Assembly (NCBI GenBank): GCA_035378845.1
Contig: DAOSUP010000009.1
Coordinates: forward strand, 546 to 64,545
Reading direction: 5' to 3'
DNA from: Dictyoglomaceae bacterium
GTDB lineage: Bacteria; Dictyoglomota; Dictyoglomia; Dictyoglomales; Dictyoglomaceae
DNA: 64,000 nucleotides
Below the pieces are notes generated by a model. It searched no databases. It saw only the letters and a list, made by a program, of their open reading frames with translations, and was not told where the DNA came from. A program made the translations under genes and the position numbers. Shown here piece by piece: positions 38,228-57,799 of this stretch (positions within the stretch are counted from its first letter, which is position 1; each line of letters begins with the position of its first letter).

Positions 38228-39343
38228 ATGAAAATAGCATTTTTATCAAGTCCCATAGCCTATAATATTAATGAAAAGATAGAAGAAGCTAAAAACTTCT
38301 TAAGGAGATATTTAAACTTAGAAGAGAGCGAAGATCCTGATGCTATAGTCCTTCTCACAGGAGGAACAGAAGCATCATCTTTAAAATATTTAAAAGATGG
38401 ACTCTATATCATTCCCTTTGGAAAAGCCAATGGACTTGCAGCAAGCCTTGAGATACAAGGTTATGCAAGAGAAAAAGGAATAAAAACCATCTTAATTCCA
38501 AATATTACTGAAGATATAATCAAAACATTAAAGGTTATTGATGAATTGAAAAACCAAAAGATAGGGATTATTGGAAAGCCCAGTGATTGGCTCATAAAAA
38601 GCGGAAGCTATGATATCTTGAAAGAACTTCATTTAATCCCTATAGAAATACCTCTTTCTGAAGTAGAAAAATATTTAGAGGAAGATAATTCACTTACAGA
38701 AAAAATATGGGGACTTGCAAAAGAGAAAAAGACATCAAAAGAAGAGCTCCTTAATGCTACAAAAATCTACACCTCTTTAAAAAGAATTATAGAAAAATAT
38801 AATATTTCAGCTCTTACCATACGATGCTTTGATCTTGCAATAAACTTAAAAATTACTGGATGCCTTGCCTTATCCCTTTTAAATTCCGAAGGAATTATAT
38901 CCTCTTGTGAAGGAGATATAGAAGCTCTTGCTACCATGCTTTTAGAGAAAAAACTTACAGGGAAAACGCCTTTTATGGCAAATTTAGCAAAAATTGAGGA
39001 GGATAGATATACCTTTGCCCATTGTACCATGGCTATAGATATGCCAGAATATTTTAATCTTAATAGCCATTTTGAGACCTTAAGCAGTGTGGGGATTGAA
39101 GGATATATAAAGACTGATAAGATAACATTATGTAGATTAGGAAAGGGAAAGAAAATTATGGTAAGATCTGGGGAATTTATAGAGAAACCATTTGAAGATC
39201 ATATGTGTAGAACCCAAATTGCAGCCAGGATAAAAGATTCTTCATTTCTTAAAAATCCCATAGGAAACCATTTCATACTATTTTTAGGGGATGAGGAGGA
39301 TTCCATTAAAAACTTAACAAAAGTAGGGTGGGAGATTGTTTAA
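38228..39343 (+). CDS. sugar-isomerase-like protein (L-fucose/L-arabinose isomerase superfamily); function tentative
   Basis: 371-aa soluble protein. Its overall pattern (LTGGTE...IIGKPSDWLI...RCFDL...GC.ALS.LN..GI..SCEGD...FMAN...AHC) resembles FucI-like proteins from memory only. Confidence 0.4.
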   Translation: MKIAFLSSPIAYNINEKIEEAKNFLRRYLNLEESEDPDAIVLLTGGTEASSLKYLKDGLYIIPFGKANGLAASLEIQGYAREKGIKTILIPNITEDIIKTLKVIDELKNQKIGIIGKPSDWLIKSGSYDILKELHLIPIEIPLSEVEKYLEEDNSLTEKIWGLAKEKKTSKEELLNATKIYTSLKRIIEKYNISALTIRCFDLAINLKITGCLALSLLNSEGIISSCEGDIEALATMLLEKKLTGKTPFMANLAKIEEDRYTFAHCTMAIDMPEYFNLNSHFETLSSVGIEGYIKTDKITLCRLGKGKKIMVRSGEFIEKPFEDHMCRTQIAARIKDSSFLKNPIGNHFILFLGDEEDSIKNLTKVGWEIV

Positions 39344-39990
39344 CTTTCCACCACCTCTATATTTTTCACATTTTCCAGTTCCGAAAGTTTTGTGATGAGT
39401 TCTCTTTCTTTTAACTTAGCAGGAAGTCTTAAAACTATTCTAAGGGTTGCATCATCTTCATCAAGAGGAGAGACACCTATCTCTTTTATATCCACATCCA
39501 ATTCACCTAAAAGAGTACCTAATTTTCCAATAGATCCTGGTCTATCTTCTATAATACATTTAAGAACAACAAATTTATGCGTTTGTATAATTGCTACTTC
39601 AAACTTTGCAACAAAAAATAATATTAAAAAAATTAGAAAAGCAGTAAATGTTGCAGGAATATAAAGACCTGCTCCCACTGCAAGCCCTACCCCTGCCATA
39701 GTCCATATACTTGCTGCTGTGGTAAGCCCTTTGACTCCTACTCCCGTTCTTAAAATTGTCCCAGCACCTATAAAACCTATACCTGTGACAACCTGAGCAG
39801 CTATTCTTGTAGGATCCGCATTGGGAAAAGTATAAGCAGATACAATCATAAGAAGTGTAGAGCCAAGACATACAATTATATGAGTACGAAGACCAGCAGG
39901 TTTTTCTTCTTTTTCTCTCTCCCAGCCTACAATTCCCCCCAGTATAACAGAAAGAATAAGTCTGTAAAAAATTTCCGTATTGCTTATCAT
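39340..39990 (-). CDS. MgtC/SapB-family membrane protein with a C-terminal ACT-like domain
   Basis: N-terminal MgtC membrane domain (GGIVGWEREKEEKPAGLRTH...) plus a soluble C-terminal regulatory-type domain. Confidence 0.8.
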   Translation of the reverse strand: MISNTEIFYRLILSVILGGIVGWEREKEEKPAGLRTHIIVCLGSTLLMIVSAYTFPNADPTRIAAQVVTGIGFIGAGTILRTGVGVKGLTTAASIWTMAGVGLAVGAGLYIPATFTAFLIFLILFFVAKFEVAIIQTHKFVVLKCIIEDRPGSIGKLGTLLGELDVDIKEIGVSPLDEDDATLRIVLRLPAKLKERELITKLSELENVKNIEVVES

Positions 39991-40112: not shown

Positions 40113-40141
40113 TTGATAAAATTAATATACTATTGTATACT
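40113..40141 (+). promoter_or_regulatory. candidate promoter of a short non-coding transcript next to the DnaA-box array
   Basis: TTGATA (40113-40118), 17-nt spacer, TATACT (40136-40141). Confidence 0.35.
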
Positions 40142-40210
40142 CAAAAAAATTTAAAAGATTTTTTAGTGTAGAGAAAAAAATCCATCCCAGTCAGAATTTC
40201 TTTTCTCAAA

Positions 40211-40240
40211 AGATGCCCCTTTAAGGGGCATCTTTTTTTA
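40211..40240 (+). terminator. intrinsic terminator (10-bp stem, T7 tail)
   Basis: agatgcccct-tta-aggggcatct followed by TTTTTTT. No plus-strand CDS lies upstream; the mgtC-like gene is on the other strand. Confidence 0.6.
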
Positions 40241-40260
40241 ATAGGAAAGCTTTTTTTAAA

Positions 40261-40507
40261 TTATCCACATTTTACTATTAATACTACAAAAGAGAATAAT
40301 AAGAATAAAATACTAGTAGTAGTAGTAAGTGTTGTGGATACTGTGGATAATCTTCCGAAAGATAGCAAATAGAAGTGATTTAATTGTGGATAAGTTTTCC
40401 TAACTTATTCACAATATCCACAATTTATAGCTTAAGGACAAAGTTATCCACAATTTATTAAAGTTATCCACAGACTTATCCACAAGCTATCCACATTTTT
40501 ATCCACA
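40261..40507. other. DnaA-box cluster: candidate chromosomal replication origin (oriC) or another high-density DnaA-binding locus
   Basis: Perfect TTATCCACA at 40261, 40444, 40464, 40476 and 40499. Perfect TGTGGATAA (reverse orientation) at 40342 and 40385. One-mismatch boxes at 40333 (TGTGGATAC), 40405 (TTATTCACA), 40414 (ATATCCACA) and 40487 (CTATCCACA). Confidence 0.8.
40314..40328. repeat. DnaA-trio-like trinucleotide run (TAG x4, TAA x1)
   Basis: tagtagtagtagtaa, separated by gtgt from two abutting DnaA boxes (40333-40350). A 44-bp tract (40270-40313) with about 84% A+T by my count lies on the other side. Confidence 0.6.
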
Positions 40508-40685: not shown

Positions 40686-41702
40686 TTATAGAAATTCCCT
40701 TATCCTATTTAAGAGATCCTTCATGGGATAGGTATCAAACCACTCTTTTCCTGTGAGTTCATTGGCATAAGCTTTGTAGATCATAGATACAAGATCCTTT
40801 AATTCCCTGGGAAGTTTTGGGGGATTTCCTACATAATCTTTCCAATGAAATCTATCTTTCTTTTTTGCTTCCTCAATCTCTTTATACCATTCGGTCTTTC
40901 TGTAAAATATTCGGGCAATCTCTTTACTTATAGGAATAGAGTTATACGTAAATCTACATTCATCAAGAGTACCTACAGCATCCACAAGAATGAAATTTCT
41001 TTCTAAGTCAAAGGCAAATTCTACCTTTCCATCTTCATTTATAAGTTCAATTTTTTCTCCTTCTTTTGTAATCATATCATCAATAAATAAAGTGCTATCT
41101 ATAAGATTACGAAACTCTTCCTCTGAAAGTCCACTGATCTCTCTTGCCTCATCTTTTGATAGATATCTATCATTGATCTCTAATTTTGTAGAGAAATCAA
41201 CTATAGGCTTTTCTAATTTCTCTCCAGGAGATGGAATCTTGGAAAGTCCAAGATTTTCTATCTTTAAGTTTCCCTCTTTTAATCTTCTAAACACAGAAGA
41301 CCCTTCAGGTAGAGAGTTTCTATAGATCACCTCTAAGGGTATTAAAAAGTTTAACTTCTCTTTTTTAAATATGGAATAATCATATACTCCATTACTTAGA
41401 TCAGGTTTTAGGACTCTTACCATTTTAAATTCCATGATATTTGATGGAGATTTCAATTCCGATAGACTTTTTACCTTATCATCTTCTACAATTCCTATAT
41501 AATGGGTTTTTATACCCATATTCTCCAATCTTTCAAAGAAATAAGAGGTAGCAATACATATAGCCTTTCCTTTATCCTCTATATGGTCTGGCATCTCTCC
41601 AAAGTCAAAGACTGAGTATCGGTCTGAGAATACAAATCTACCTCTTCCGAGAGAATGTTCTTTTGGATTTTCCAGTATGATAAGATCCTTTACGCTACCC
41701 AT
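40686..41702 (-). CDS. purC: phosphoribosylaminoimidazole-succinocarboxamide (SAICAR) synthase
   Basis: MGSVKDLI...GRGRFVFSDRYSVFDFG N-terminus typical of the long-form PurC. It overlaps purE by 8 nt. Confidence 0.85.
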   Translation of the reverse strand: MGSVKDLIILENPKEHSLGRGRFVFSDRYSVFDFGEMPDHIEDKGKAICIATSYFFERLENMGIKTHYIGIVEDDKVKSLSELKSPSNIMEFKMVRVLKPDLSNGVYDYSIFKKEKLNFLIPLEVIYRNSLPEGSSVFRRLKEGNLKIENLGLSKIPSPGEKLEKPIVDFSTKLEINDRYLSKDEAREISGLSEEEFRNLIDSTLFIDDMITKEGEKIELINEDGKVEFAFDLERNFILVDAVGTLDECRFTYNSIPISKEIARIFYRKTEWYKEIEEAKKKDRFHWKDYVGNPPKLPRELKDLVSMIYKAYANELTGKEWFDTYPMKDLLNRIREFL

Positions 41703-42168
41703 GAGACCTCACTTCTTCATCAGCTTTTTCTATCTCGGCTCTTTTCTCCTCTTGATACCTTTTTATTTTTTCACTGAGCTCTGGATATTTGAGAGATAAT
41801 ATCTTTATCGCAGAAAGTGCTGCCTCTTCAGGCTCTAATACCGTTAGAGGTGCAACACCTGAGGGCATTCTCAATGTGGAGAATACATCTACTCCTGAAA
41901 ACTTATCACTATATGGTGGGCATGCAATTACAGGTTTTGTGGTGTTTGCATCTGTAAATCCTGAAAGGGCATTGCTTCTTCCTGCAACTGTGATGAATAC
42001 TACATCTTCCTTTTCATAGTCTTTTATAATATCAAGCACTTTTAAAGGTACTTTGTGGGCTGATGCAACTCTCATTGTGTATGGCACTTCAAAAAATTCC
42101 AGAGTATTTGCAATTCTTTTACACCACTCCAGATCTCCCTTTGAACCCATGATAATTACTACTTTCAT
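41695..42168 (-). CDS. purE: PurE (N5-CAIR mutase / AIR carboxylase)
   Basis: MKVVIIMGSKGD...ASAHK...AGRSNALSG motifs. ATG 42168 follows GGAGGA; the track start at 42192 is probably too long. Confidence 0.85.
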   Translation of the reverse strand: MKVVIIMGSKGDLEWCKRIANTLEFFEVPYTMRVASAHKVPLKVLDIIKDYEKEDVVFITVAGRSNALSGFTDANTTKPVIACPPYSDKFSGVDVFSTLRMPSGVAPLTVLEPEEAALSAIKILSLKYPELSEKIKRYQEEKRAEIEKADEEVRSHG

Positions 42169-42241
42169 ATGAGATCCTCCTTGTAGGAGCATTTTGAGTT
42201 TTTAAAATTATACTTGAAAAACCTTATTAAGAAAAGATTTT

Positions 42242-43315
42242 TTAGGAGTATGCTACAAAATAGATAGTATTGAAAAGTAAGCGATGAATATATTTATTAG
42301 GAAGTTTTAAATTAGTGCCTGGGATCTGGGAAAGTTCTGGATGAAAAGAAAAAAGTACCACATTACCATCTCCAAGTTTTGAGTGTGTGAGGGCTCCACC
42401 ATCTTTTATTACCGAGTTTACAAAATCTTCTTTGAAGTTTCCTCCAAATATAAATGCTTCTTTATCTATATGGGAATATACCGCAATTTTTTTAAAGGGA
42501 GGATTTACTTTATCCTCTTTGTTTTCTTCTATGATAGGTCCATTCCAATATAAAACAGATATCTCTTCTTCAAATCCAAAGGTTATAGGATTTTTCTCTT
42601 TTATCTTAATGTTTGCAACCCCCATTCCTAAATGCCATGGATTCTGATTTTTAGCTATTCCTTTTACAAAGGAGATCTGTGAGGTGATAGAATTTGTCCC
42701 TTTTAATGGAACATAGGCACCTGCACAGATTCCAATATATCCTCCACCATCTTTTATAAATGAGACTAACTTATCTCCGCCACTTTTTCCAAGAGATTTT
42801 TCAATATTATAGGCAACTCCAGGAGGGAAAATGATAAGATCATACTTTTCATTCTTTAAAGCTCCTTTTTTTAACGATTCTGGAGAGATTTTTGTAAAGC
42901 TAAATCCCAGTTCCTTTAAAGTGCTATGGAGAGGAAGGTTTTCACCTGTATCAAGGACTGCAATATGTGGTGGAGATGGTATATATGTTTTTATAGCTGT
43001 AATCTCTTTATAGGGGAATTTTCTTTTGGAAAGCTCATTTTTAATAGCAGTTAGCTCTTCCTTAGGGCCTGAGATCTTTAGAGAGCCTGGAGGGATACCT
43101 TTTATATCATCATATATGATTTGTAGTTTCATTTTTCCCGAATAATATCTTTTATTTAAGAAGGATAAGATTTCAACTGTCTCGTTCTCTCTGCCCTTAG
43201 GTGTTTTTAGAGGAAGAGGCACAATCAAATATGTGTCCTTACTCTGAGAAGGAGTACTATATGCAAAAAGGGCTATAGATATTAAAATTAAAAAAAGACT
43301 TAGAAATACTTTCAT
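42242..43315 (-). CDS. secreted protein with a class-I glutamine-amidotransferase-like (DJ-1/BPL_N-type) domain, function unknown
   Basis: Signal peptide; the central DLIIFPPG...GGGYIGICAGAY motif resembles the GATase1-like fold. Confidence 0.45.
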   Translation of the reverse strand: MKVFLSLFLILISIALFAYSTPSQSKDTYLIVPLPLKTPKGRENETVEILSFLNKRYYSGKMKLQIIYDDIKGIPPGSLKISGPKEELTAIKNELSKRKFPYKEITAIKTYIPSPPHIAVLDTGENLPLHSTLKELGFSFTKISPESLKKGALKNEKYDLIIFPPGVAYNIEKSLGKSGGDKLVSFIKDGGGYIGICAGAYVPLKGTNSITSQISFVKGIAKNQNPWHLGMGVANIKIKEKNPITFGFEEEISVLYWNGPIIEENKEDKVNPPFKKIAVYSHIDKEAFIFGGNFKEDFVNSVIKDGGALTHSKLGDGNVVLFSFHPELSQIPGTNLKLPNKYIHRLLFNTIYFVAYS

Positions 43316-43345
43316 TTTTCTCTTATAAAAGTATATAATAAAATC

Positions 43346-44191
43346 ATGAGGATTTTAATTACAGGTGCAAAAGGATTTATAGGTCAGTATTTTTTGAAGG
43401 AGCTTGAGAATTTTGATACCATCAAACTTTCTCATAGCGATTTAAATTTAGAGGATAAAACTACTATTGAAAGGATCCTATCTTTAAAACCTGATATGGT
43501 AATTCATCCTGCTGCTATTCGCTCCCCAGATGTTTGTGAGGAGAATCCTCATAAAGCTTTTCAGGTTAATGCTCTTGGGGCAAAGCATATAGCAATTGCC
43601 TGTGCTATTCTTGATATACCTATGGTTTATATAAGTACTGATTATGTCTTCTCAGGTGAGAAAAATGATCCTTATACAGAATTTGATACTCCTAAGCCTT
43701 TAAATGTATATGGAAGGACAAAACTTTGGGGAGAGATTTTTACTAAGGAATTTTGTAAAAGACATTTTATCATTCGCACCTCCTATGTTTTTGGGGAGTA
43801 TGGAGATAATACCTTGAATCAAATATATGGTGCATTGAAAGAAGGTAAAGAATTAAGATTAAGCAATTTCCATTTTGCATCGGCAACCTATGCAGGAGAC
43901 TTAGCAAGAAAGGTAAGGGAGCTTATAGGGACAAAACTTTATGGGGTTTATCATGTGGTAAATAAAGGGATTGTTACTCGTTATGATTTTGCCTGCAAGG
44001 TAGCAGAGACATCTGGTTTTTCTAAGGATAAAATTATACCCTTAACTCCTGAAAATTTTAATAATCCTGCTCCAAGACCTCTTTACTCAGTATTAGAGAA
44101 TTATGTGCTTAAACTTTATGGGATGGATGATCTCTCTTCTTATGAAGAGCGTCTTAAAAAATGCACTGAACTCTTAAAATCTCATATATAA
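43346..44191 (+). CDS. rfbD: dTDP-4-dehydrorhamnose reductase
   Basis: MRILITGAKGFIG Rossmann N-terminus and STDYVF, YGRTK motifs typical of RmlD. Confidence 0.85.
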   Translation: MRILITGAKGFIGQYFLKELENFDTIKLSHSDLNLEDKTTIERILSLKPDMVIHPAAIRSPDVCEENPHKAFQVNALGAKHIAIACAILDIPMVYISTDYVFSGEKNDPYTEFDTPKPLNVYGRTKLWGEIFTKEFCKRHFIIRTSYVFGEYGDNTLNQIYGALKEGKELRLSNFHFASATYAGDLARKVRELIGTKLYGVYHVVNKGIVTRYDFACKVAETSGFSKDKIIPLTPENFNNPAPRPLYSVLENYVLKLYGMDDLSSYEERLKKCTELLKSHI

Positions 44192-44224
44192 TAAATGAGA
44201 AACTTATTTATAGGAGGTATGTAA

Positions 44225-45202
44225 ATGTTTTTTGATCTTCCTCTCTCAGAACTTTATAAATATCTTCCTGAAAGGGAGGAGCCTAAGGATTTTGATGAAT
44301 TCTGGGAAAAAACATTAGAGGAGTCATCACAGTATCCTTTGGATCCTGTTTTTGATAAGGTAAAATTTGGACTGGATCTTGTGGAGACTTACGATGTGAC
44401 TTTTTCTGGATATAAAGGGCAGAGGGTTAAAGGTTGGCTTATTGTCCCTAAGGAAAGGAAGGATAAAATTCCAGGTATTGTGGAATATATAGGATATGGT
44501 GGTGGAAGAAGTCTTCCTTATGACTTTCTACTTTGGGCAAATGTGGGTTTTGCTCATCTTGTAATGGATACAAGAGGGCAAGGAAGTTCCTGGAGTCCGG
44601 GAGATACTCCTGATTATGATGATACTCCTTTTGATTCTGAATATCCTGGATTTATGACCAGAGGTATCTTAGCGCCTAAAAAATATTATTATCGTAGAGT
44701 TTTTACTGATGCTGTAAGGGCTGTAGAAACTATTATGGCATTTCCTGATGTGGATAAGAATAAGATAGGAATTACGGGTGGAAGTCAAGGTGGAGGAATT
44801 ACCTTAGCTGTAGCAGGTCTTTCTCCTCATGTAAAACTTGCAATGCCTGATGTACCTTTCCTTTGCCATTATAGGAGAGCTATAGAAATAACTGATGGTT
44901 ATCCATATCAAGAGATTGTGCAATATCTAAAAACTCATAGGGATCATGTAGATAAAGTCTTTAAGACATTATCCTATTTTGATGGAGTAAATTTTGCAGC
45001 ACGTGCTAAGGCTCCTGTTCTTTTTTCGGTGGGACTTATGGATATGATATGTCCTCCTTCTACGGTTTTTGCAGCCTATAACCATTACAAAGGTGGGAAG
45101 GAGATAAAAATATATCCCTTTAATGGTCATGAAGGGGGGGGGACATTTCATACCTTGGAGAAGGTAAAATTTGCAAGTAGGATTTTAAAAGGTTTCTTCT
45201 AA
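44225..45202 (+). CDS. CE7 acetylxylan esterase / cephalosporin-C deacetylase
   Basis: [13 protein letters not shown]...DFDEFW N-terminus, GGSQGG nucleophile motif and RGQG motif typical of CE7. Confidence 0.9.
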
Positions 45203-46000
45203 GAGTTTCTTTATCATATTTATATTATAAAGATCTGCCATAGGAGAATCTTTGGGAGTCTCAAGAATAAGAGGGATTTTATGGAGCTCTTCTATCTTAA
45301 ATAGATTTTGAAATCCTCTTATTCCAATGGCTCCTTTTCCTATATGAGCGTGTTGATCTCTCCTTGATCCTAAAGGAAAATGAGAGTCATTTATATGGAG
45401 AAGAGAAAGCTTCTGTAAAGGTATCTTCTCTAAAAAAGAGTAGAAGAATGCTTTACACTTTCTCTCATTTTTCAGATTATATCCTGCAGCAAAAAGGTGA
45501 CACGTATCAAGGCAGAAATATATATCAGGAAATTCTTTATATACATCATAAAGATTCTCTATGGTAGAGCCCCATCCATCTCCTTCTCCTGCACTATTTT
45601 CCATAATAAGTTTTGTTTTTATTCCATTATTATCAAAGATTTTTTCTAAGGAGTTTAAGAAGTTTTCTTCTGCCACTTCTTTTCCCATTTTTTTGCTACT
45701 TCCAGGATGTATAACTACTCCTTCCCATCCTAAACGTTCTGCAAGCTTTAGCTCTTCTATAACTTTTTTTATGGATAGATTACATATTCTCTCATCAGGA
45801 GATGCAAGATTTACTACGTAAGGTGCATGGATAAAGATAGGAGTAAAAGGGAAAATAGGGAGTTTTTCCGATGAAGGTCTATAACTTCTTGGATTTCCTG
45901 AAAAAAGCTGAGCAGTATTTATACCAAGGAGTCTTATATCTTCAAAAATCTCTCGGGAACCTCTGAAAAGATGTATACCTATCTTATATAGTGTTTTCAT
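45185..46000 (-). CDS. nfo: endonuclease IV (AP endonuclease family 2)
   Basis: [30 protein letters not shown] and HAHIGKG metal-ligand motifs. It overlaps the convergent CE7 gene by 18 nt. Confidence 0.85.
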
Positions 46001-46045
46001 AAGAGGATGAAGCTCTCCTCCTTTAAAGAAGGAGAGCTTATGCCT

Positions 46046-46981
46046 TTACTTATTTGTCGCTTCCTCCATCCTCATTAATCTATCTAGTTCATCCTGAACA
46101 TCTTTCTTGAATGCTTCTAAAATATTAGCATTCTCAGGTTTGAGAAGATGGGAGAATCTTCCCTGAACTTTGAGGAATTCCTCTACTGGTTTGAAACCTT
46201 TAGCAGGTTTGTAATTTATCTTATATTTTCCATCTTCTACCTCATAAAGAGGCCATACTCCAGTTTCCACAGCAAGTTTTGCTATACTTATGGCAGAGTT
46301 ATCAGGAGTCCTCCATCCTCTTGGGCAAGTGGAATATATATTTAAAAATGCAGGTCCATCGGTAGCTACTGCCTTTTTTACCTTTTCCATAAGGTCTCTC
46401 CAATGGCTTGGAGAAGCCTGAGCCACATATTTTGCTCCATTTGCTACCATCATTTCAGTTAGATTCTTTCTCCTTTGAGGTTTTCCTGGAATCACATCTC
46501 CCACAGGAGAAGTGGTAGTGAATGCTCCTCTTGGTGTTGCTCCAGACCTTTGAATTCCTGTATTCATATATGCTTCATTATTATAGCAGATATATACTGC
46601 TCTATGACCTCTTTCAATAGCTCCAGAAAGAGATTGGATTCCTATGTCATAGGTGCCGCCATCTCCAGAAAAGCTTACAAATCTTATATCTCTATCAACC
46701 TCTCCTTTTCTCTTTAGAGCTCTGTAAGCTGCTTCTACACCTGATATAGTTGCTGCAGCATTTTCAAAGGCACTATGGATCCATGGTACATTCCATGCTG
46801 TAAATGGAAAAATTGTAGTTGCTACTTCAAGACATCCTGTAGCATTAGCTACCACAACAGGTTCATCTATGGCATTAAGCACCATTCTTACAATTATACT
46901 GGCACCACAGCCAGCACATAATCTATGTCCACTTACTAATCGCTCCTCTTTTAATGCGATTTCTTTTAAGTTTATTGGCAT
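46046..46981 (-). CDS. porB: pyruvate:ferredoxin oxidoreductase beta subunit (TPP-binding)
   Basis: GCGA Cys motif and GDGGTYDIG TPP motif. It is the last gene in the gamma-delta-alpha-beta order. Confidence 0.9.
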   Translation of the reverse strand: MPINLKEIALKEERLVSGHRLCAGCGASIIVRMVLNAIDEPVVVANATGCLEVATTIFPFTAWNVPWIHSAFENAAATISGVEAAYRALKRKGEVDRDIRFVSFSGDGGTYDIGIQSLSGAIERGHRAVYICYNNEAYMNTGIQRSGATPRGAFTTTSPVGDVIPGKPQRRKNLTEMMVANGAKYVAQASPSHWRDLMEKVKKAVATDGPAFLNIYSTCPRGWRTPDNSAISIAKLAVETGVWPLYEVEDGKYKINYKPAKGFKPVEEFLKVQGRFSHLLKPENANILEAFKKDVQDELDRLMRMEEATNK

Positions 46982-46994
46982 TATCGTCCACCTC

Positions 46995-48182
46995 CTATTC
47001 TCTTACTCCGATGTAGGTGAGAGGATTTGTTTTTCCTTTCTTACCTATATCTACAAGTTCTTCAAATACTTTCTCAATATGATCCATGGTTATGTCTCTT
47101 CCTCCAAGTCCATACACATAAGATTGTACAATAGGTCTTTTGTCAAAGTGATAAAGACCTGAAGTGATCTCATGGTATAGAGGTCCTCCAAAGGATCCAG
47201 GAACCATGCTTCTATCTAATACTCCTACCACCTTAATGTCCTTAAGAGCATTAGTGATATCTTCTAATGGGAATGGTCTGAATACTCTTATCTTGAGAAG
47301 ACCTACAGGAAGTCCTTTTTCTCTTAGTCTATCTACCACTTCTCTTGCAGTACCGATAGTAGAGCTCATGGCAACGATCACATATTCTGCTCCATCTATC
47401 TTGTATTTTTCTATGGTATCGTAATATCTTCCCGTAAGATCTCCATATTCTTTTCCTACTTTCTTTATGATAGGTAGAGAGTGGTCAATAGCATAAGCCT
47501 GAGCCACTTTAAATTCAAAATAGGAGTCAGTAAGAGCAAGGGGTCCCATGGTAATAGGACTATCTACATCAAGAAGATTATATTTGGGCTTATACTTCCC
47601 TATAAAATTCTTTACTATATCATCATCAAGAAGTTCAATCATCTCTTCTGAATGACTTGTGATAAATCCATCATATCCTACCATAACAGGAAGTCTTACA
47701 TCAGGATTCTCTGCAATTTTTACTGCTTGGAATACATTGTCATATATTTCCTGCACATTTTCAGAGAATATCTGGATCCATCCAGAGTCTCTTGCTCCCA
47801 TAGCATCACTATGATCCCCATGGATATTTATAGGGGCAGAAAGGGCTCTATTGGAAACAGTCATAACGATAGGGAGTCTCATAGAAGCGGCTATATACAG
47901 CATTTCCCACATAAGGGCAAGTCCCTGAGATGCTGTAGAAGTGATAACTCTTGCTCCTGCTGCAGCAGCGCCAATACAAGCACTCATAGCACTATGTTCA
48001 CTTTCTACAGGGACAAATTCTGTATCTACCTCACCATTTGCCACATACTCAGAGAACTTTTGCACCACTTCTGTGGATGGTGTTATAGGATAAGCAGCTA
48101 CCACATCAGGATTTACCTGTTTAAAAGCTAATGCAGCTGCCTCATTTCCCTCAATAGCAATTCTTTTTATCTGAGTTTTCAT
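46995..48182 (-). CDS. porA: pyruvate:ferredoxin oxidoreductase alpha subunit
   Basis: 395 aa with a GNEAAALA...YPITPSTE N-terminus typical of PorA/VorA. Confidence 0.9.
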   Translation of the reverse strand: MKTQIKRIAIEGNEAAALAFKQVNPDVVAAYPITPSTEVVQKFSEYVANGEVDTEFVPVESEHSAMSACIGAAAAGARVITSTASQGLALMWEMLYIAASMRLPIVMTVSNRALSAPINIHGDHSDAMGARDSGWIQIFSENVQEIYDNVFQAVKIAENPDVRLPVMVGYDGFITSHSEEMIELLDDDIVKNFIGKYKPKYNLLDVDSPITMGPLALTDSYFEFKVAQAYAIDHSLPIIKKVGKEYGDLTGRYYDTIEKYKIDGAEYVIVAMSSTIGTAREVVDRLREKGLPVGLLKIRVFRPFPLEDITNALKDIKVVGVLDRSMVPGSFGGPLYHEITSGLYHFDKRPIVQSYVYGLGGRDITMDHIEKVFEELVDIGKKGKTNPLTYIGVRE

Positions 48183-48195
48183 TATCTTCCCTCCT

Positions 48196-48465
48196 TTATT
48201 TCATGGTTATGGCTTTTATAGCACATTCTGCTGCACAGATTCCGCATCCTTTGCAGTAGTCATAATCTATATGTACTTTTTCACCATCAAATTTTATTGC
48301 AGAATCAGGGCAAAATAGCCAGCATAACATACATGTGGTACACTTTTCATAATCAATCTCTGGACGAAAGGTCCTCCAATCCCCAGTTTTATATTCTTTT
48401 GATGTGGCTGGCTTTGGAATAATAGGACCAGTCTCTACTAATTCTTTCCATCCTGGTAGTTTCAT
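48196..48465 (-). CDS. porD: pyruvate:ferredoxin oxidoreductase delta subunit (2x[4Fe-4S])
   Basis: CTTCMLCWLFCP and CKGCGICAAEC ferredoxin motifs. 89 aa. ATGA-type overlap with porG. Confidence 0.9.
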   Translation of the reverse strand: MKLPGWKELVETGPIIPKPATSKEYKTGDWRTFRPEIDYEKCTTCMLCWLFCPDSAIKFDGEKVHIDYDYCKGCGICAAECAIKAITMK

Positions 48466-49034
48466 TCTCCCTTTACCTCCTCGTAAGCTCTTTTTATCGC
48501 CTGAAGGTTGCCCTCAACAACTTCGGGCTTGAATTTTACTTCAAATTTCTTTCTGGACTGAGCTAAAACCTCATCTAAGGAAATTATTGGTAGTACTCTG
48601 ATCAGAGCACCAAGCATTGGAGTATTAGGAATTGGTCTTCCTATAGTAGCAAGAGCAATTCCTGTGGCATCTACAGTATAGATTTTTCTGTCTGAGATGC
48701 CCAGTTCCTGTCTTAGTGTTTTCGGATCATCAGTAGTATTTACAAGGATGATTCCATCAGAAGGAAGTCCTTCTATGATATCAACCTTTCCTATGAGAGT
48801 TTTATCAAGCACCACTACAGCATCAGGATTATACACCTGACTATGGATTCTTATAGGTTTAGTGCTTATCCGAGTATATGCTTTCATAGGGGCTCCAGTT
48901 CTTTCTGGACCATATTCTGGAAAAGCTTGGATAAATTTTCCAGCCTCCATGGCTGTTTCAGCAAGGAGATAAGAAGCTGTCTTTGCTCCTTGCCCTGCTC
49001 GTGCATGCCAGCGTATTTCTAAAAGCTCCTTCAT
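48462..49034 (-). CDS. porG: pyruvate:ferredoxin oxidoreductase gamma subunit
   Basis: 190 aa with the RWHARAGQGAKTAS motif typical of the gamma subunit. Confidence 0.9.
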   Translation of the reverse strand: MKELLEIRWHARAGQGAKTASYLLAETAMEAGKFIQAFPEYGPERTGAPMKAYTRISTKPIRIHSQVYNPDAVVVLDKTLIGKVDIIEGLPSDGIILVNTTDDPKTLRQELGISDRKIYTVDATGIALATIGRPIPNTPMLGALIRVLPIISLDEVLAQSRKKFEVKFKPEVVEGNLQAIKRAYEEVKGE

Positions 49035-49046
49035 ACAGTTACCTCC

Positions 49047-49658
49047 TTAATCTTTTGGAATTTTTAGGTCTTGCCTTCCATCTAAAGCATGAGCTAATGT
49101 TAGCTCATCAGCGAAGTCAAGCTCAGTGCCCACAGGAAGTCCATGGGCAAGTCTTGTTACTTTGACATTATATTCAGAAAGGATCTTCCCAATATACATA
49201 GCAGTTGCTTCTCCTTCAGGAGTAGAATCGGTAGCAAGGATTACTTCCTTGATACCTCCTTTTTCAACCCTATCTTTTAATTCAAAGATTCTTAAATCTT
49301 CAGGGAATACTCCATCAAGAGGTGAGATAAGTCCTCCCAATACATGATAGAGTCCATTATATTGAGATGTTCTTTCTATAGCCCATACATCTTTTGGTTC
49401 TGATACCACACAAATGGTACTATGATCTCTTTTAATGTCAGAACATATTTCACATGGATCTTTTTCGGTAAGATTGAAACAGATAGAACAATATTTTATG
49501 TTATTTTTAACCTTTAATATGGTATGAGCGAGTTTCTCCACATTTTCATGAGGCTGTTTTATAAGGTAAAAAGCTATTCTCTGGGCAGATTTAGGACCTA
49601 TCCCAGGTATCTTTGTTAGCTCATCTACGAGCTGATCAAAAAGACTTCTTTCTGCCAT
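49047..49658 (-). CDS. recR: recombination protein RecR
   Basis: HhH motif (IPGIGPKSAQRIAFYL), C4 zinc finger (CSICFNLTEKDPCEIC) and Toprim domain. Confidence 0.95.
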   Translation of the reverse strand: MAERSLFDQLVDELTKIPGIGPKSAQRIAFYLIKQPHENVEKLAHTILKVKNNIKYCSICFNLTEKDPCEICSDIKRDHSTICVVSEPKDVWAIERTSQYNGLYHVLGGLISPLDGVFPEDLRIFELKDRVEKGGIKEVILATDSTPEGEATAMYIGKILSEYNVKVTRLAHGLPVGTELDFADELTLAHALDGRQDLKIPKD

Positions 49659-49661
49659 TAC

Positions 49662-49979
49662 TTAGAAAAGTCCGGGTGGTAAAGAGAGTCCGTCAGTGAG
49701 TCCTCCCATCTTTTCAGCTGTCTTTTCTTTGGCTTTAGTTAAAGCATCCCTTAATGCAGCTGCCACAAGATCCTCCAGGACATCTACCTCCTCTTTATTT
49801 ACTACTTCAGGATCAATTTTTACCTCTTTTACATCTTCCTTTGCCGTCATAGTTATCTTGATTACACCACCACCTGCAGTACCCTCCACTAAGGTTTGTT
49901 CTAATTCTTCGTCAATCTTTGCCATCTTTTCTTGTATCTTTTTCAGTTGTTTCATGGCTTCAAAAGGATTACCCTTCAC
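49662..49979 (-). CDS. ybaB: YbaB/EbfC-family nucleoid-associated protein
   Basis: 105 aa with MKQLKKIQEKM...GTAGGGVIKITM, in the conserved position between dnaX and recR. Confidence 0.9.
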   Translation of the reverse strand: MKGNPFEAMKQLKKIQEKMAKIDEELEQTLVEGTAGGGVIKITMTAKEDVKEVKIDPEVVNKEEVDVLEDLVAAALRDALTKAKEKTAEKMGGLTDGLSLPPGLF

Positions 49980-49990
49980 GTTATTCCCTC

Positions 49991-51535
49991 CTAATCTATT
50001 ATTTTGCCTTTGAAAATATTCTTTACGTCTTCTGGAGACGCCTTTTTATCCTCTTTCTTAGGCTCCTCCTCTGATTTAGGATTATCAAAAAGAGAAGGAT
50101 TTTCATCTATCGTGGTAAATTTTATAGGAATTTGTGTACCGTAGACTTTTTTAATCTCCTCCTCTATAAAAGCTCTATTGGGTCTCTCTTCTAATCTTTC
50201 TTTTAAGAAGGATAAATTACTTGGAATACCAAGGACCAATCTCCCTTCGGAATCTATCTCTATAATTTTTGCCTCTCTAAGCATAGCTTCTAAGGATATC
50301 CTTCTCTTTTTTACTTTCTCAAGTACCTCTCCCCATCTATCTTTTATAGCATCTATATCCGATGCACTTTCTATAGGTTTTTTCTCTTCTTTTACCTCTG
50401 CTACCTTCTCTATATTTACCTCATTTACCTTAACCTGGGGAAGCTCAGCATCTTCTTTTAGAAATAGAGGAATAAGAGTCATCTCCATGAGAAGGGGTGC
50501 ATTGGTAAGATCTCTTAATCTATTTTCTAAGATGAGAATTTGGTCTATAATGTCCTGCAATCTTTTTATAGTAAATAGGTTTGTCTGATCCATAAGCTCT
50601 TGATATTCATCTTCTGTAAGGGAGAGAAGATTAGAAAGTCTTGGCTCAGCTTTTAAAAGAAGAAGATTTCTAAAATGTTGTAAAAGTTCTCTTACAAATT
50701 GCTGAGGATTCTTCCCCATCTGGAATATCTGTTGAAGAAGACTCCATCCTTCAGCAAGATTATATTCTCCCATTGCTTTTACAAAGGCATAAGTAAATTC
50801 ATAAGTGGGAAGTCCCAATAGATTTCTTGCAAGATCTTCTGTGATTTCCTGATCCGAATATATAAAAAGTTGCTCCAGAAGACTTATGGCATCTCTCAAA
50901 GAACCTTGAGATTGAAGGGATATAATCTTTAATGCCTCTTGAGATATTTTTACCCCTTCATTCTCAGAGATCTTAGAAAGTTGTTTTGCAATCTCATCTC
51001 TTGTTAATCTTCTAAAATCAAATCTCTGGCATCTGGAAAGTACAGTCAGTGGTACCTTTTGCGGCTCTGTAGTTGCCATAATAAAGACCACATGCTCAGG
51101 TGGCTCCTCTAAAATCTTAAGAAGTGCATTAAAAGCTTCATTAGTTAACATATGGACTTCATCAATGATATAGACCTTATATCGATCTCTTACAGGGAGA
51201 AGCCTTGCCTTTTCTCTTATATCTCTTATCTCATCTATGCCACGATTTGAAGCAGCATCAATCTCAATGACATCTATACTTCTTCCCTCTGCAGTTTCTA
51301 TACAAGAGTTACATTTTAAGCAGGGGGTTGGTGTAGGTCCCTTTTCACAATTTAAAGATTTAGCAAGTATTCTTGCAAGGGTAGTTTTTCCTGTGCCTCT
51401 TGGACCTGCAAAAAGATATGCATGGGCAATACGATTATACTTTAAACCATTCTGCAAAGTGACTACGATATGCTCTTGTCCTACAACTTCTTCAAAGGTT
51501 TGTGGTCGCCATTTTCTGTATAATGCTAAAGGCAT
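49991..51535 (-). CDS. dnaX: DNA polymerase III subunit gamma/tau
   Basis: Walker A GPRGTGKTT, zinc module CLKCNSC, SRC motif (LSRCQRF). Its ATG directly abuts the metG stop. Confidence 0.95.
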   Translation of the reverse strand: MPLALYRKWRPQTFEEVVGQEHIVVTLQNGLKYNRIAHAYLFAGPRGTGKTTLARILAKSLNCEKGPTPTPCLKCNSCIETAEGRSIDVIEIDAASNRGIDEIRDIREKARLLPVRDRYKVYIIDEVHMLTNEAFNALLKILEEPPEHVVFIMATTEPQKVPLTVLSRCQRFDFRRLTRDEIAKQLSKISENEGVKISQEALKIISLQSQGSLRDAISLLEQLFIYSDQEITEDLARNLLGLPTYEFTYAFVKAMGEYNLAEGWSLLQQIFQMGKNPQQFVRELLQHFRNLLLLKAEPRLSNLLSLTEDEYQELMDQTNLFTIKRLQDIIDQILILENRLRDLTNAPLLMEMTLIPLFLKEDAELPQVKVNEVNIEKVAEVKEEKKPIESASDIDAIKDRWGEVLEKVKKRRISLEAMLREAKIIEIDSEGRLVLGIPSNLSFLKERLEERPNRAFIEEEIKKVYGTQIPIKFTTIDENPSLFDNPKSEEEPKKEDKKASPEDVKNIFKGKIID

Positions 51536-53428: not shown

Positions 53429-53467
53429 GCCACTTCGCTCCTTTCATAACTTTAAAATTCCTTGATA

Positions 53468-53496
53468 ATAATACTACTTACAAAAATCTATGTCAA
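53468..53496 (-). promoter_or_regulatory. candidate promoter of metG-dnaX-ybaB-recR
   Basis: Minus strand: TTGACA (53496-53491), 17-nt spacer, TATTAT (53473-53468). Confidence 0.45.
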
Positions 53497-53507
53497 ATAG
53501 GCACAGC

Positions 53508-55919: not shown

Positions 55920-56003
55920 GAAATCCTTCTCTAAATGAATTTTTACTATTATACCCTATAGTTTAAGAAGTAAAGATTTTCTTAGATGAGTTTTCCCCTG
56001 CTA

Positions 56004-57797: not shown

Positions 57798-57799
57798 GA

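What the first reader, a model, noticed from the sequence alone, without database searches (positions are those of the whole stretch)
40270..40350. DnaA-trio-like (TAG)4TAA run, tandem boxes and an AT-rich tract form a textbook unwinding module
The + strand reads tac TAG TAG TAG TAG TAA gtgt TGTGGATAC TGTGGATAA. That is five consecutive TA(G/A) trinucleotides (40314-40328), a 4-nt spacer, then two abutting DnaA boxes. On the complementary strand this is box-box-spacer followed by CTA repeats, so the strand read 3'-to-5' shows GAT repeats. From memory, that matches the DnaA-trio element (3'-[G/A]AT-5' repeats next to tandem boxes) defined at the Bacillus subtilis origin, where DnaA loads onto single-stranded DNA. 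Distal to the trios lies a 44-bp stretch (40270-40313) with about 84% A+T by my count, capped by another perfect box at 40261. This tract is a plausible DNA-unwinding element. The arrangement argues for a functional origin rather than a mere DnaA-titration site.
Basis: partly seen in the sequence, partly recalled or inferred. Interest (0 to 1): 0.75.

Follow-up and report, generated by a model that had tools for sequence, protein, structure and literature searches.

The report
Replication-origin unwinding module of a Dictyoglomota bacterium
The TAG repeat, twin DnaA boxes and AT-rich stretch are real and form the standard DNA-opening module of this bacterium's chromosome replication origin, a kind of element already predicted in most bacteria, including a close relative, so it is a sound but ordinary find.

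Summary
TAGTAGTAGTAGTAA lies at 40314-40328, followed by a 4-nt spacer, TGTGGATAC and TGTGGATAA. A perfect box sits at 40261, and the tract between is 84.1% A+T. The run is the only (TAR)>=4 on either strand of the 64 kb window (0.03 expected).

Polarity, the 4-nt gap and the 13-bp spacer match the published basal unwinding system (BUS) and the T. maritima origin. In a trio-blind sample of 92 origins with the same box geometry, all 20 with >=3 TA[G/A] trios have a 4-nt gap.

The site is the chromosomal origin. It holds 11 DnaA boxes in 250 bp, and third-codon GC skew, controlled for gene strand, switches exactly at this intergenic region (0/2000 permutations). No dnaA lies within 64 kb.

The organism is an uncultured Dictyoglomota bacterium. 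The orthologous module of Dictyoglomus turgidum is already listed as a predicted BUS (Pelliciari 2021 supplement).

One twist: across four lineages the tract keeps its phase, length and its T and G, but not the "critical" central A. D. thermophilum has TTG TTG TTG TGG TAA and fails the BUS rule. The verdict is a new member of a known kind, of low interest. Unwinding itself is untested.

The parts
40261..40269 (+). Left DnaA box, perfect TTATCCACA. It is inverted relative to the tandem pair and caps the far end of the AT tract.
   Evidence: It is present in all six aligned Dictyoglomota origins (TTATCTACA in L038) at 63-66 nt from the tandem pair.
40270..40313 (.). AT-rich tract (84.1% A+T), the presumed DNA-unwinding element distal to the trios.
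   Evidence: Mean pairwise identity to relatives is 0.63, the same as inter-box spacers. It is assigned by position only; it is not the least stable duplex in the intergenic region.
40311..40328 (+). DnaA-trio run, 5'-TAC TAG TAG TAG TAG TAA-3' (= 3'-AAT GAT GAT GAT GAT CAT-5'). This is the strand predicted to be bound as single-stranded DNA by the DnaA oligomer.
   Evidence: There are 7 consecutive NAN trios, 5 of them canonical. The run is identical in 6 independent assemblies of the species. Its phase is conserved in relatives.
40329..40332 (.). 4-nt gap (GTGT) between the first trio and the proximal box.
   Evidence: All 20 blind-sample origins with >=3 TAR trios have a 4-nt gap, mostly GGGC. 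Relatives have GGGG, GGGC or GGAC.
40333..40341 (-). Proximal DnaA box of the tandem pair (GTATCCACA on the - strand, 1 mismatch).
40342..40350 (-). Distal DnaA box of the tandem pair, perfect TTATCCACA on the - strand, 13 bp from the first trio.
   Evidence: It is invariant in relatives.
40385..40393 (-). Third co-oriented perfect DnaA box, 34 nt from the pair, followed by a conserved GTTTTCC.
   Evidence: The 34-nt distance holds in all lineages, with 33 nt in one of the two D. thermophilum copies (L139). The same pair-plus-third-box geometry occurs in dnaA-dnaN origins of unrelated bacteria.
40405..40507 (+). Array of seven DnaA boxes in the opposite orientation, starting at 40405, 40414, 40444, 40464, 40476, 40487 and 40499. 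The last four are 11-12 bp apart. This is the presumed DnaA-oligomerisation region.
   Evidence: The boxes are almost invariant in relatives: 89/99 box columns over all 11 boxes of the origin.
40261..40507 (.). The chromosomal replication origin (oriC) as a whole, lying between mgtC (39340-39990, -) and purC (40686-41702, -).
   Evidence: Box cluster. GC3-skew switch at this intergenic region. Synteny and conservation in L001, L038, L143, D. thermophilum and D. turgidum. Orthologue of DoriC ORI92730237.

Best explanation
This is the unwinding end of the chromosomal replication origin of an uncultured Dictyoglomota bacterium, built as a basal unwinding system (BUS).

Inferred mechanism, by analogy with B. 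subtilis:

1. DnaA-ATP binds the two co-oriented boxes at 40333-40350.
2. Its AAA+ domains then polymerise in the 3'-to-5' direction along the + strand. One protomer engages each 5'-TA(G/A)-3' trio across the 4-nt gap.
3. This stretches the strand and captures its bases, so the duplex opens into the adjacent AT-rich tract (40270-40313), where the helicase is loaded.
4. The seven oppositely oriented boxes at 40405-40507, and the inverted box at 40261, supply or stabilise the DnaA oligomer.

Shown here: the sequence anatomy, its non-random nature, its polarity and spacing, its conservation in phase, and the coincidence with a leading/lagging strand switch. Inferred, not shown: DnaA binding, filament formation and melting at this site.
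For: **Anatomy and rarity.**
- The anatomy is exact.
- The (TAR)5 run is unique in the window, with 0.03 expected.

**Fit to the published BUS.**
- An emulation of the published BUS rule ranks this module first: 0-mismatch box, spacer 13, 7 NAN trios (rule from PMC8287927).
- The polarity equals that of T. maritima, 5'-TTATT-(TAG)3-TAAATAATA-GGGG-...-GGTGGTAGGTTT (PMC10316083), and the rows of the BUS table.
- In 92 distinct origins selected only on box geometry, all 20 with >=3 TAR trios have a 4-nt gap, as here. Sampled ones lie between dnaA and dnaN.

**Origin status.**
- The best GC3-skew split of all gene boundaries is 39990|40686, with t = 6.1 and 0/2000 permutations.
- Same-strand genes differ left versus right, at p = 1e-4 and p = 0.01.
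- There are 11 boxes in 250 bp.

**Conservation.**
- The mgtC-oriC-purC synteny and the box array are conserved in four lineages.
- Trio T positions are 5/5 invariant and G positions 3-4/5.
- Tract length is constant at 63-66 nt.
- There is no copy-number variation in 6 assemblies.
- The D. turgidum orthologue is already a predicted BUS.
Against: - No biochemical evidence is available.
- The central adenine is experimentally critical in trios 1-3 of B. subtilis. Here it is the least conserved position of the tract across Dictyoglomota: 0/5 invariant, pairwise identity 0.50-0.55.
- D. thermophilum (TTG TTG TTG TGG TAA) and L001/L038 (TTG TTG TAG TAG TTA) fail the >=3-NAN rule at the homologous site.
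- The gap is GTGT, not GC-rich.
- The AT tract is no more conserved than neutral-looking spacers and is not the thermodynamic minimum of the intergenic region.
- dnaA is not nearby.
- 13 of 16 genes to the right are head-on to the inferred fork.
Confidence: 0.8

Rival explanations
1. The origin is the same, but the delivery route differs: single-stranded-DUE recruitment as in T. maritima and E. coli. The TAG repeats, once unwound, are bound by a DnaA oligomer assembled on the distant array of closely spaced boxes (40464-40507, 11-12 bp apart), brought over by DNA bending. They are not bound by a continuous filament growing from the adjacent tandem pair.
For: - In T. maritima, three TAG repeats are essential for unwinding. 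They are bound by DnaA assembled on boxes 3-5, while the box-proximal 'trios' are dispensable (PMC10316083).
- The window has four boxes at helical-turn spacing.
- Relatives tolerate non-canonical box-proximal trios: TTA in L001/L038, TGG in D. thermophilum.
Against: - The right-hand array has the opposite orientation to the tandem pair. In T. maritima, boxes 1, 3, 4 and 5 share one orientation (oligonucleotides).
- The exact 4-nt gap and 13-bp spacer shared with BUS origins are what direct loading requires.
- The two routes are not mutually exclusive.
Confidence: 0.12
2. The perfect (TAG)4TAA run is a lineage-specific, essentially neutral trinucleotide tract. The boxes and general AT-richness do the work, and the resemblance to DnaA-trios in this genome is incidental.
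For: - The central A is not conserved.
- The two distal trios are TTG in every other lineage, so the run of five is recent.
- D. thermophilum retains one canonical trio.
Against: - The phase, the 4-nt gap, the tract length and the T and G positions are as conserved as the DnaA boxes.
- No length variation appears among 6 assemblies or between lineages, which is unlike a slipping microsatellite.
- It is the only such run in 128 kb of strand, and it sits at exactly the canonical distance and polarity.
- L143 swaps TAG and TAA but keeps all five TAR.
Confidence: 0.06
3. The box cluster is a DnaA-titration or regulatory locus (datA/DARS-like, or a DnaA-controlled promoter region for mgtC or purC), and the real origin lies elsewhere, for example next to dnaA.
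For: - There is no dnaA or dnaN within 64 kb.
- Gene orientation to the right is mostly head-on.
Against: - The strand-controlled GC3 skew switches sign exactly here with origin polarity.
- The orthologous site is the DoriC origin of D. turgidum at about 277 kb.
- Full BUS anatomy is present.
Confidence: 0.02

Closest known systems
Predicted BUS of Dictyoglomus turgidum DSM 6724 oriC (DoriC ORI92730237; Pelliciari et al. 2021, supplementary table)
   Same: It is the orthologous locus, lying between purC and mgtC. It has the same tandem pair, 4-nt gap, 13-bp spacer and polarity, and the same surrounding box array. The published string AATAGGTGT TACAGGTGT CAGG GATGATGAT equals the L140 sequence.
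   Different: The window has five TAR trios (seven NAN) against three, a gap of GTGT against GGAC, and a proximal box with 1 mismatch against 2. The flanks are about 35-40% diverged.
Bacillus subtilis incC basal unwinding system (DnaA-box 6/7, GC-rich gap, DnaA-trios, AT-rich 27-mer; Richardson 2016/2019, Pelliciari 2023)
   Same: It has two co-oriented boxes, a short gap, 3'-GAT-5' repeats on the strand whose 3' end faces the boxes, and then AT-rich DNA. Blind-sample dnaA-dnaN origins show identical geometry.
   Different: The window's origin is not between dnaA and dnaN and is not bipartite in the window. The gap is not GC-rich. The relatives of this genome tolerate T or G at the central position, which is critical in B. 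subtilis.
Thermotoga maritima oriC DUE (TTATT + (TAG)3 'eTrio' + TAAATAATA + GGGG + tmaDnaA box 1; Lu et al., JBC 2023)
   Same: It is a thermophile origin far from dnaA. It has a run of TAG repeats on the same strand and with the same polarity relative to the nearest box, and TAG repeats are experimentally essential there.
   Different: - T. maritima uses a divergent 12-mer box.
- Its TAG run is separated from the box by 9 nt of weaker trios plus GGGGACGCA.
- It has a single proximal box.
- It carries a TTATT motif on the TAG strand, which is absent from the + strand of 40270-40313 (sequence printed).
Escherichia coli oriC (DUE 13-mers, R1, left and right DnaA-oligomerisation regions)
   Same: It has a box next to an AT-rich DUE and two sub-arrays of boxes in opposite orientations. 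It is also not adjacent to dnaA (background and established knowledge).
   Different: E. coli relies on IHF and TT[A/G]T(T) motifs, with a single R1 box and weak trios. The window has a canonical tandem pair and a TAG run.

Membership tests
Basal unwinding system (BUS) as defined by Pelliciari et al. 2021 | A DnaA box with <=2 mismatches to TTATCCACA | tested here: met
   40342-40350 is a perfect box on the - strand.
Basal unwinding system (BUS) as defined by Pelliciari et al. 2021 | An optional second, co-oriented tandem box with <=4 mismatches | tested here: met
   40333-40341 is GTATCCACA with 1 mismatch, abutting the first box.
Basal unwinding system (BUS) as defined by Pelliciari et al. 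2021 | A spacer of <=16 bp from the best box to the first trio (mode 13; about 4 bp after the second box) | tested here: met
   The spacer is 13 bp from the best box and 4 bp from the proximal box. All 20 trio-bearing origins of the blind sample have 4 bp.
Basal unwinding system (BUS) as defined by Pelliciari et al. 2021 | At least 3 consecutive 3'-NAN-5' trios, consensus 3'-GAT-5' | tested here: met
   There are seven NAN trios, five of them 3'-[G/A]AT-5'. The run is unique in the window.
Basal unwinding system (BUS) as defined by Pelliciari et al. 2021 | Polarity: the trio strand is the 5' tail of the box duplex, and the box reads TGTGGATAA on the trio strand | tested here: met
   Compared with the '5'-tail encoding DnaA-trios' statement, the T. 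maritima oligonucleotides and the table rows for D. turgidum, Listeria and T. maritima.
Basal unwinding system (BUS) as defined by Pelliciari et al. 2021 | A GC-rich gap between the boxes and the trios | tested here: inconclusive
   The length is right (4 nt), but the sequence is GTGT (50% G+C). The blind sample has GGGC in 13 of 20, and relatives have GGGG, GGGC or GGAC.
Basal unwinding system (BUS) as defined by Pelliciari et al. 2021 | An AT-rich region beyond the trios | tested here: met
   The tract is 84.1% A+T over 44 nt. However, 4.9% of intergenic 44-mers reach this, and it is not the least stable segment.
Basal unwinding system (BUS) as defined by Pelliciari et al. 2021 | Trios conserved in related origins | tested here: inconclusive
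   Phase, length and the T/G positions are conserved, but the central A is not. D. turgidum and L143 pass the rule, while D. thermophilum and L001/L038 fail it at the homologous site.
Basal unwinding system (BUS) as defined by Pelliciari et al. 2021 | DnaA-dependent strand separation that requires both the boxes and the trios | not testable with these tools
   This needs purified cognate DnaA and scaffold or plasmid assays.
Bacterial chromosomal origin (oriC) | A cluster of DnaA boxes in an intergenic region | tested here: met
   There are 11 boxes (<=1 mismatch) in 40261-40507. The window total of 41 compares with 21.7 expected, and 0/100 shuffles reach it.
Bacterial chromosomal origin (oriC) | A switch of replication-associated strand asymmetry with origin polarity | tested here: met
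   A GC3-skew regression controlling for gene strand puts the best split at 39990|40686, with 0/2000 permutations. Same-strand comparisons give p = 1e-4 and p = 0.01. Only 64 kb was available, so this is local evidence.
Bacterial chromosomal origin (oriC) | Linkage to dnaA/dnaN (common but not universal) | tested here: not met
   There is no DnaA or beta-clamp domain among the ORFs scanned across the window; dnaX is at 49991-51535. The T. maritima, E. coli and D. turgidum (about 277 kb) origins also lack this linkage.
Bacterial chromosomal origin (oriC) | Autonomous replication or initiation mapped in vivo | not testable with these tools
   This needs marker-frequency analysis or a minichromosome assay.
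T. maritima-type modular DUE (TTATT + eTrio + trio) | At least 3 tandem TAG repeats on the strand whose 3' end faces the box | tested here: met
   There are four TAG repeats plus TAA (reference).
T. maritima-type modular DUE (TTATT + eTrio + trio) | A TTATT motif on the TAG strand, distal to the repeats | tested here: not met
   There is no TTATT on the + strand of 40270-40313 (sequence printed).

The most novel reading that the evidence does not exclude
In Dictyoglomota the single-strand element next to the box pair is constrained as a period-3 T-N-G tract, not as the canonical N-A-N trio. T is invariant at 5/5 positions, G at 3-4/5, and the 'critical' central A at 0/5. D. thermophilum carries TTG TTG TTG TGG TAA.

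If these origins all fire from this site, then Dictyoglomus DnaA reads its single-strand motif differently from B. subtilis DnaA, relying on the G and T contacts and not on adenine capture. Alternatively, it needs only one canonical trio.

A related possibility is that the inverted left box (40261), with + strand TTA CTA TTA ATA CTA after it, forms a mirrored trio set on the opposite strand, for symmetric opening.
Probability: 0.15. Interest if true: 0.55.

Novelty: new member of a known kind. Interest (0 to 1): 0.22.

Why it matters
It pins the replication origin of an uncultured, digester-dwelling Dictyoglomota lineage to a 250-bp site far from dnaA. That is useful for genome orientation, for growth-rate estimates from coverage, and for annotation. 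It also adds one more deep-branching thermophile to the list of origins with canonical BUS geometry.

The only point of wider interest is comparative. Within this phylum, the trio position that experiments in B. subtilis identify as critical is the one that drifts. This offers a natural test set (TAG versus TTG versus TGG) for how strict DnaA's single-strand recognition really is.

Tried and rejected
- **Raw GC skew.** The 2-kb skew simply follows gene strand and was uninformative. I replaced it with strand-controlled GC3 analyses.
- **Terminator and promoter scan.** It found no terminator, although a clear hairpin plus T-run lies at 40213-40246. The likely reason is that the scanner's stem extension swallows the T-run.
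- **Rfam.** At gathering thresholds and at permissive thresholds it gave no credible family. All hits were far below gathering and driven by the terminator hairpin.
- **purC-based genome scan.** It gave only one syntenic origin (L001). L002-L010 have no box cluster next to purC.
- **MgtC homologues.** P0002, P0003, P0004, P0010 and P0011 sit in other neighbourhoods with no origin, so the sample could not grow beyond four lineages.
- **Duplex stability.** It does not single out the tract next to the trios. I therefore dropped 'exceptional AT-richness' as evidence.
- **Microsatellite copy-number variation.** I looked for it as an explanation for contigs ending in the TAG run. All six overlapping assemblies are identical, so I rejected it.
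- **RNAalifold on the adjacent sRNA-like unit.** The result was spoiled by misalignment of the hairpins, so I did not use it as evidence.
- **Cognate DnaA.** I could not retrieve the protein to inspect its single-strand-binding residues.

Full report
**Observation.** The + strand at 40311-40350 reads TAC TAG TAG TAG TAG TAA GTGT TGTGGATAC TGTGGATAA, exactly as reported. A perfect TTATCCACA lies at 40261-40269, and the 44 nt between it and the run (40270-40313) are 84.1% A+T. The pattern TARTARTARTARTAR occurs once on both strands of the 64 kb window, against 0.03 expected, and no other (TAR)>=4 run exists. DnaA-box matches with at most 1 mismatch number 41 against 21.7 expected, with 0/100 shuffles reaching that, and 11 of them lie in 40261-40507. 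The weaker part is the AT tract. In this 34% G+C genome, 4.9% of intergenic 44-mers are at least as AT-rich, and the least stable 30-mers of the intergenic region lie elsewhere.

**Context.** The cluster fills the 695-bp gap between an MgtC-family gene (39340-39990, - strand) and purC-purE (40686-42192, - strand). No dnaA or dnaN is present among the ORFs scanned across the window; dnaX is at 49991-51535. purC and MgtC homologues identify the organism as an uncultured Dictyoglomota bacterium. Its purC is 80% identical to a Dictyoglomota MAG, and its MgtC is 59-66% identical to those of D. thermophilum and D. turgidum. Identical copies occur in several digester and other metagenome assemblies.

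**Is it the origin?** Raw GC skew follows gene strand and says nothing. I regressed third-codon-position GC skew (expressed on the + strand) on gene strand and on side. This gives a side effect of +0.149 (t = 6.1) for a split at 40.3 kb. Among all gene boundaries, the best split is exactly 39990|40686, and 0 of 2000 permutations do as well.

A simpler comparison agrees:

| Genes | Left, mean coding-sense GC3 skew | Right | p |
|---|---|---|---|
| Minus strand | 0.33 | 0.05 | 1e-4 |
| Plus strand | 0.04 | 0.35 | 0.01 |

The + strand becomes G- and T-rich to the right, which is origin polarity, not terminus polarity. With the box cluster and the orthology below, I take this to be the chromosomal oriC. 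The caveat is that only 64 kb could be examined.

**Polarity and geometry against the literature.** The BUS is defined by these features (PMC8287927):
- a DnaA box, often a tandem pair;
- a spacer of at most 16 bp, most often 13, of which about 4 bp follow the second box;
- at least three 3'-NAN-5' trios, consensus 3'-GAT-5';
- the trio strand forming the 5' tail of the box duplex.

T. maritima oriC reads 5'-TTATT-TAGTAGTAG-TAAATAATA-GGGG-ACGCA-GGTGGTAGGTTT-3', and its three TAG repeats are essential for unwinding and for single-strand binding (PMC10316083). The window's + strand, 5'-AT tract-(TAG)4TAA-GTGT-TGTGGATAC-TGTGGATAA-3', has the same polarity. My emulation of the published rule on both strands of the intergenic region ranks this module first, with a 0-mismatch box, spacer 13, and seven NAN trios of which five are canonical.

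**A trio-blind control.** I scanned the metagenome collection with a pattern made only of the three co-oriented boxes (TGTGGATANTGTGGATAA, then 30-38 nt, then TGTGGATAA). This returned 119+ stretches from many habitats. Among 92 distinct upstream sequences, 20 carry at least 3 TA[G/A] trios. In all 20 the gap to the proximal box is exactly 4 nt, mostly GGGC. Six sampled loci show ORF layouts of the recF-dnaN-[module]-dnaA type. Pfam confirmed dnaA and dnaN in the two loci scanned, L024 and L049, which is the classical B. subtilis layout. The window's module therefore has the standard geometry, here placed between mgtC and purC. Only the gap sequence (GTGT) is atypical.

**Relatives.** The purC-oriC-mgtC synteny and the box array are kept in L143 (95% MgtC identity), in the L001/L038/L119 lineage, and in D. 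thermophilum (L138, L139) and D. turgidum (L140). Other Dictyoglomaceae have purC or mgtC in other neighbourhoods without boxes.

Read 5' to 3' up to the gap, the tract is:

| Genome | Tract | Gap |
|---|---|---|
| Window | TAG TAG TAG TAG TAA | GTGT |
| L143 | TAG TAG TAG TAA TAG | GTGT |
| D. turgidum | TTG TTG TAG TAG TAG | GGAC |
| L001 / L038 | TTG TTG TAG TAG TTA | GGGG |
| D. thermophilum | TTG TTG TTG TGG TAA | GGGC |

Conservation by element class:

| Element | Invariant columns | Mean pairwise identity |
|---|---|---|
| DnaA boxes | 89/99 | 0.96 |
| Trio position 1 (T) | 5/5 | 1.00 |
| Trio position 3 (G/A) | 3-4/5 | 0.83-0.90 |
| Trio position 2 (the A) | 0/5 | 0.50-0.55 |
| AT tract | 16/44 | 0.63 |
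| Inter-box spacers | 35/85 | 0.65 |

The distance from the left box to the pair is 63-66 nt in all lineages. The distance from the pair to the third box is 34 nt, with 33 in one D. thermophilum copy. Six independent assemblies of the window's species have an identical run. The tract is therefore not a slipping microsatellite; it is held in phase and length.

The canonical central adenine is not conserved, however. By the published rule, the homologous site passes in the window, L143 and D. turgidum, and fails in D. thermophilum and L001/L038. This matters because in B. subtilis the central A of trios 1-3 is critical. A-to-T or A-to-G changes lower strand separation and initiation. Cryo-EM shows G and A captured in a dinucleotide pocket, with T contacted outside it. 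The likely ancestral state is TTG TTG TAG TAG TA(G/A), so the window lineage extended the canonical run from three trios to five.

**Already known?** The supplementary table of Pelliciari et al. 2021 lists Dictyoglomus turgidum DSM 6724, DoriC ORI92730237, with the BUS AATAGGTGT TACAGGTGT CAGG GATGATGAT (written 3' to 5') at 277077-277108, spacer 13, three trios. That string is the L140 module. The same paper predicts a BUS in 85% of 2070 origins. The kind of element, and its orthologue in this phylum, are thus already computationally described. No paper dealing experimentally with a Dictyoglomus origin was found.

**Mechanism.** The best-supported model has these steps:
1. DnaA-ATP is anchored on the tandem pair.
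2. It polymerises onto the TA(G/A) trios of the + strand across the 4-nt gap.
3. This opens the duplex into the AT tract.
4. The seven oppositely oriented boxes (the last four at 11-12-bp spacing) and the inverted left box feed or stabilise the oligomer.

The main rival is T. maritima-style recruitment of the unwound TAG strand by an oligomer on the distant array. It is favoured by the tolerance of non-canonical proximal trios in relatives. It is disfavoured by the orientation of that array and by the exact BUS spacing. Neutral-repeat and titration-site readings are poorly supported. No step of DnaA binding or melting is shown here.

**Verdict.** It is a new member of a known kind, of low general interest. 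One comparative oddity is worth a test: T and G are conserved while the central A drifts.

Noticed in passing
window 40113-40246 (+); also L143, L001, L038, L138, L140 at the homologous position: A conserved small transcription unit lies immediately left of the origin and points towards the unwinding tract.
- It has a sigma-70-like promoter: TTGATA-17-TATACT here, and TTGCAA/TTGCAT-17-TATAAT in relatives.
- A nearly invariant 26-mer, CCCAGTCAGAATTTCYTTTCTCAAAG, is predicted to be unpaired.
- A GC-rich hairpin follows whose sequence changes but whose stem is kept, and then a T-run (weak in D. turgidum).
- It contains no ORF, has no credible Rfam family, and the 15-mer CCCAGTCAGAATTTC at its start is unique in the window.

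This is a candidate sRNA, or origin-proximal transcription.
   Followed up: partly
window 40261-40286: The inverted left box TTATCCACA is followed, after 2 nt, by + strand TTA CTA TTA ATA CTA. On the bottom strand this reads 3'-AAT GAT AAT TAT GAT-5'. It is a mirrored BUS-like set on the opposite strand, aimed into the same AT tract. L143 has the same and L038 has three such trios. L001, D. thermophilum and D. turgidum keep only two. The box, a CTA and a TACAA are invariant. It may be chance in AT-rich DNA.
   Followed up: partly
window ~40195-40324; L011-L018: Metagenome contigs from several independent assemblies end in or next to the origin. The mgtC-side contigs stop at 40324, inside the TAG run. 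The purC-side contigs stop at 40124-40270. The overlapping sequence is identical in all of them, so the breaks are not due to TAG copy-number differences. A possible cause is graph branching where co-occurring strains share the conserved origin but differ in the flanks.
   Followed up: partly
window 40686-59533: 13 of the 16 larger genes to the right of the inferred origin, including purC, purE, dnaX, metG and two ABC transporters, are on the - strand. They are therefore head-on to the rightward fork. To the left, the strands are evenly used (15 + and 16 -). This is unusual for origin-proximal DNA.
   Followed up: no
L138/L139 (D. thermophilum) 2190-2215, reverse strand; L001 7283-7310, reverse strand: At the site homologous to the window's trios, D. 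thermophilum has TTG TTG TTG TGG TAA and L001/L038 have TTG TTG TAG TAG TTA. These fail the published rule of at least 3 NAN trios, although the tandem boxes, the gap length and the phase are intact.
   Followed up: yes
L019-L137 (metagenome scan): The geometry 'tandem box pair, about 34 nt, third co-oriented box' is shared by origins from many unrelated habitats, including the human gut. Where (TAG)n is present, it is always 4 nt from the pair. In the two loci checked by Pfam (L024, L049) the module lies between dnaA and dnaN. Many other loci with the same boxes have further boxes, not trios, upstream.
   Followed up: partly
window 44749-44955: A minor group of three DnaA-box-like 9-mers (one perfect, two with 1 mismatch) lies inside the acetyl-xylan-esterase gene (44225-45202). 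This is probably chance.
   Followed up: no
L002, L003, L141, L145-L150: Several Dictyoglomaceae lineages have purC or the MgtC homologue in other neighbourhoods with no box cluster. The origin's flanking genes are therefore not fixed across the family.
   Followed up: partly
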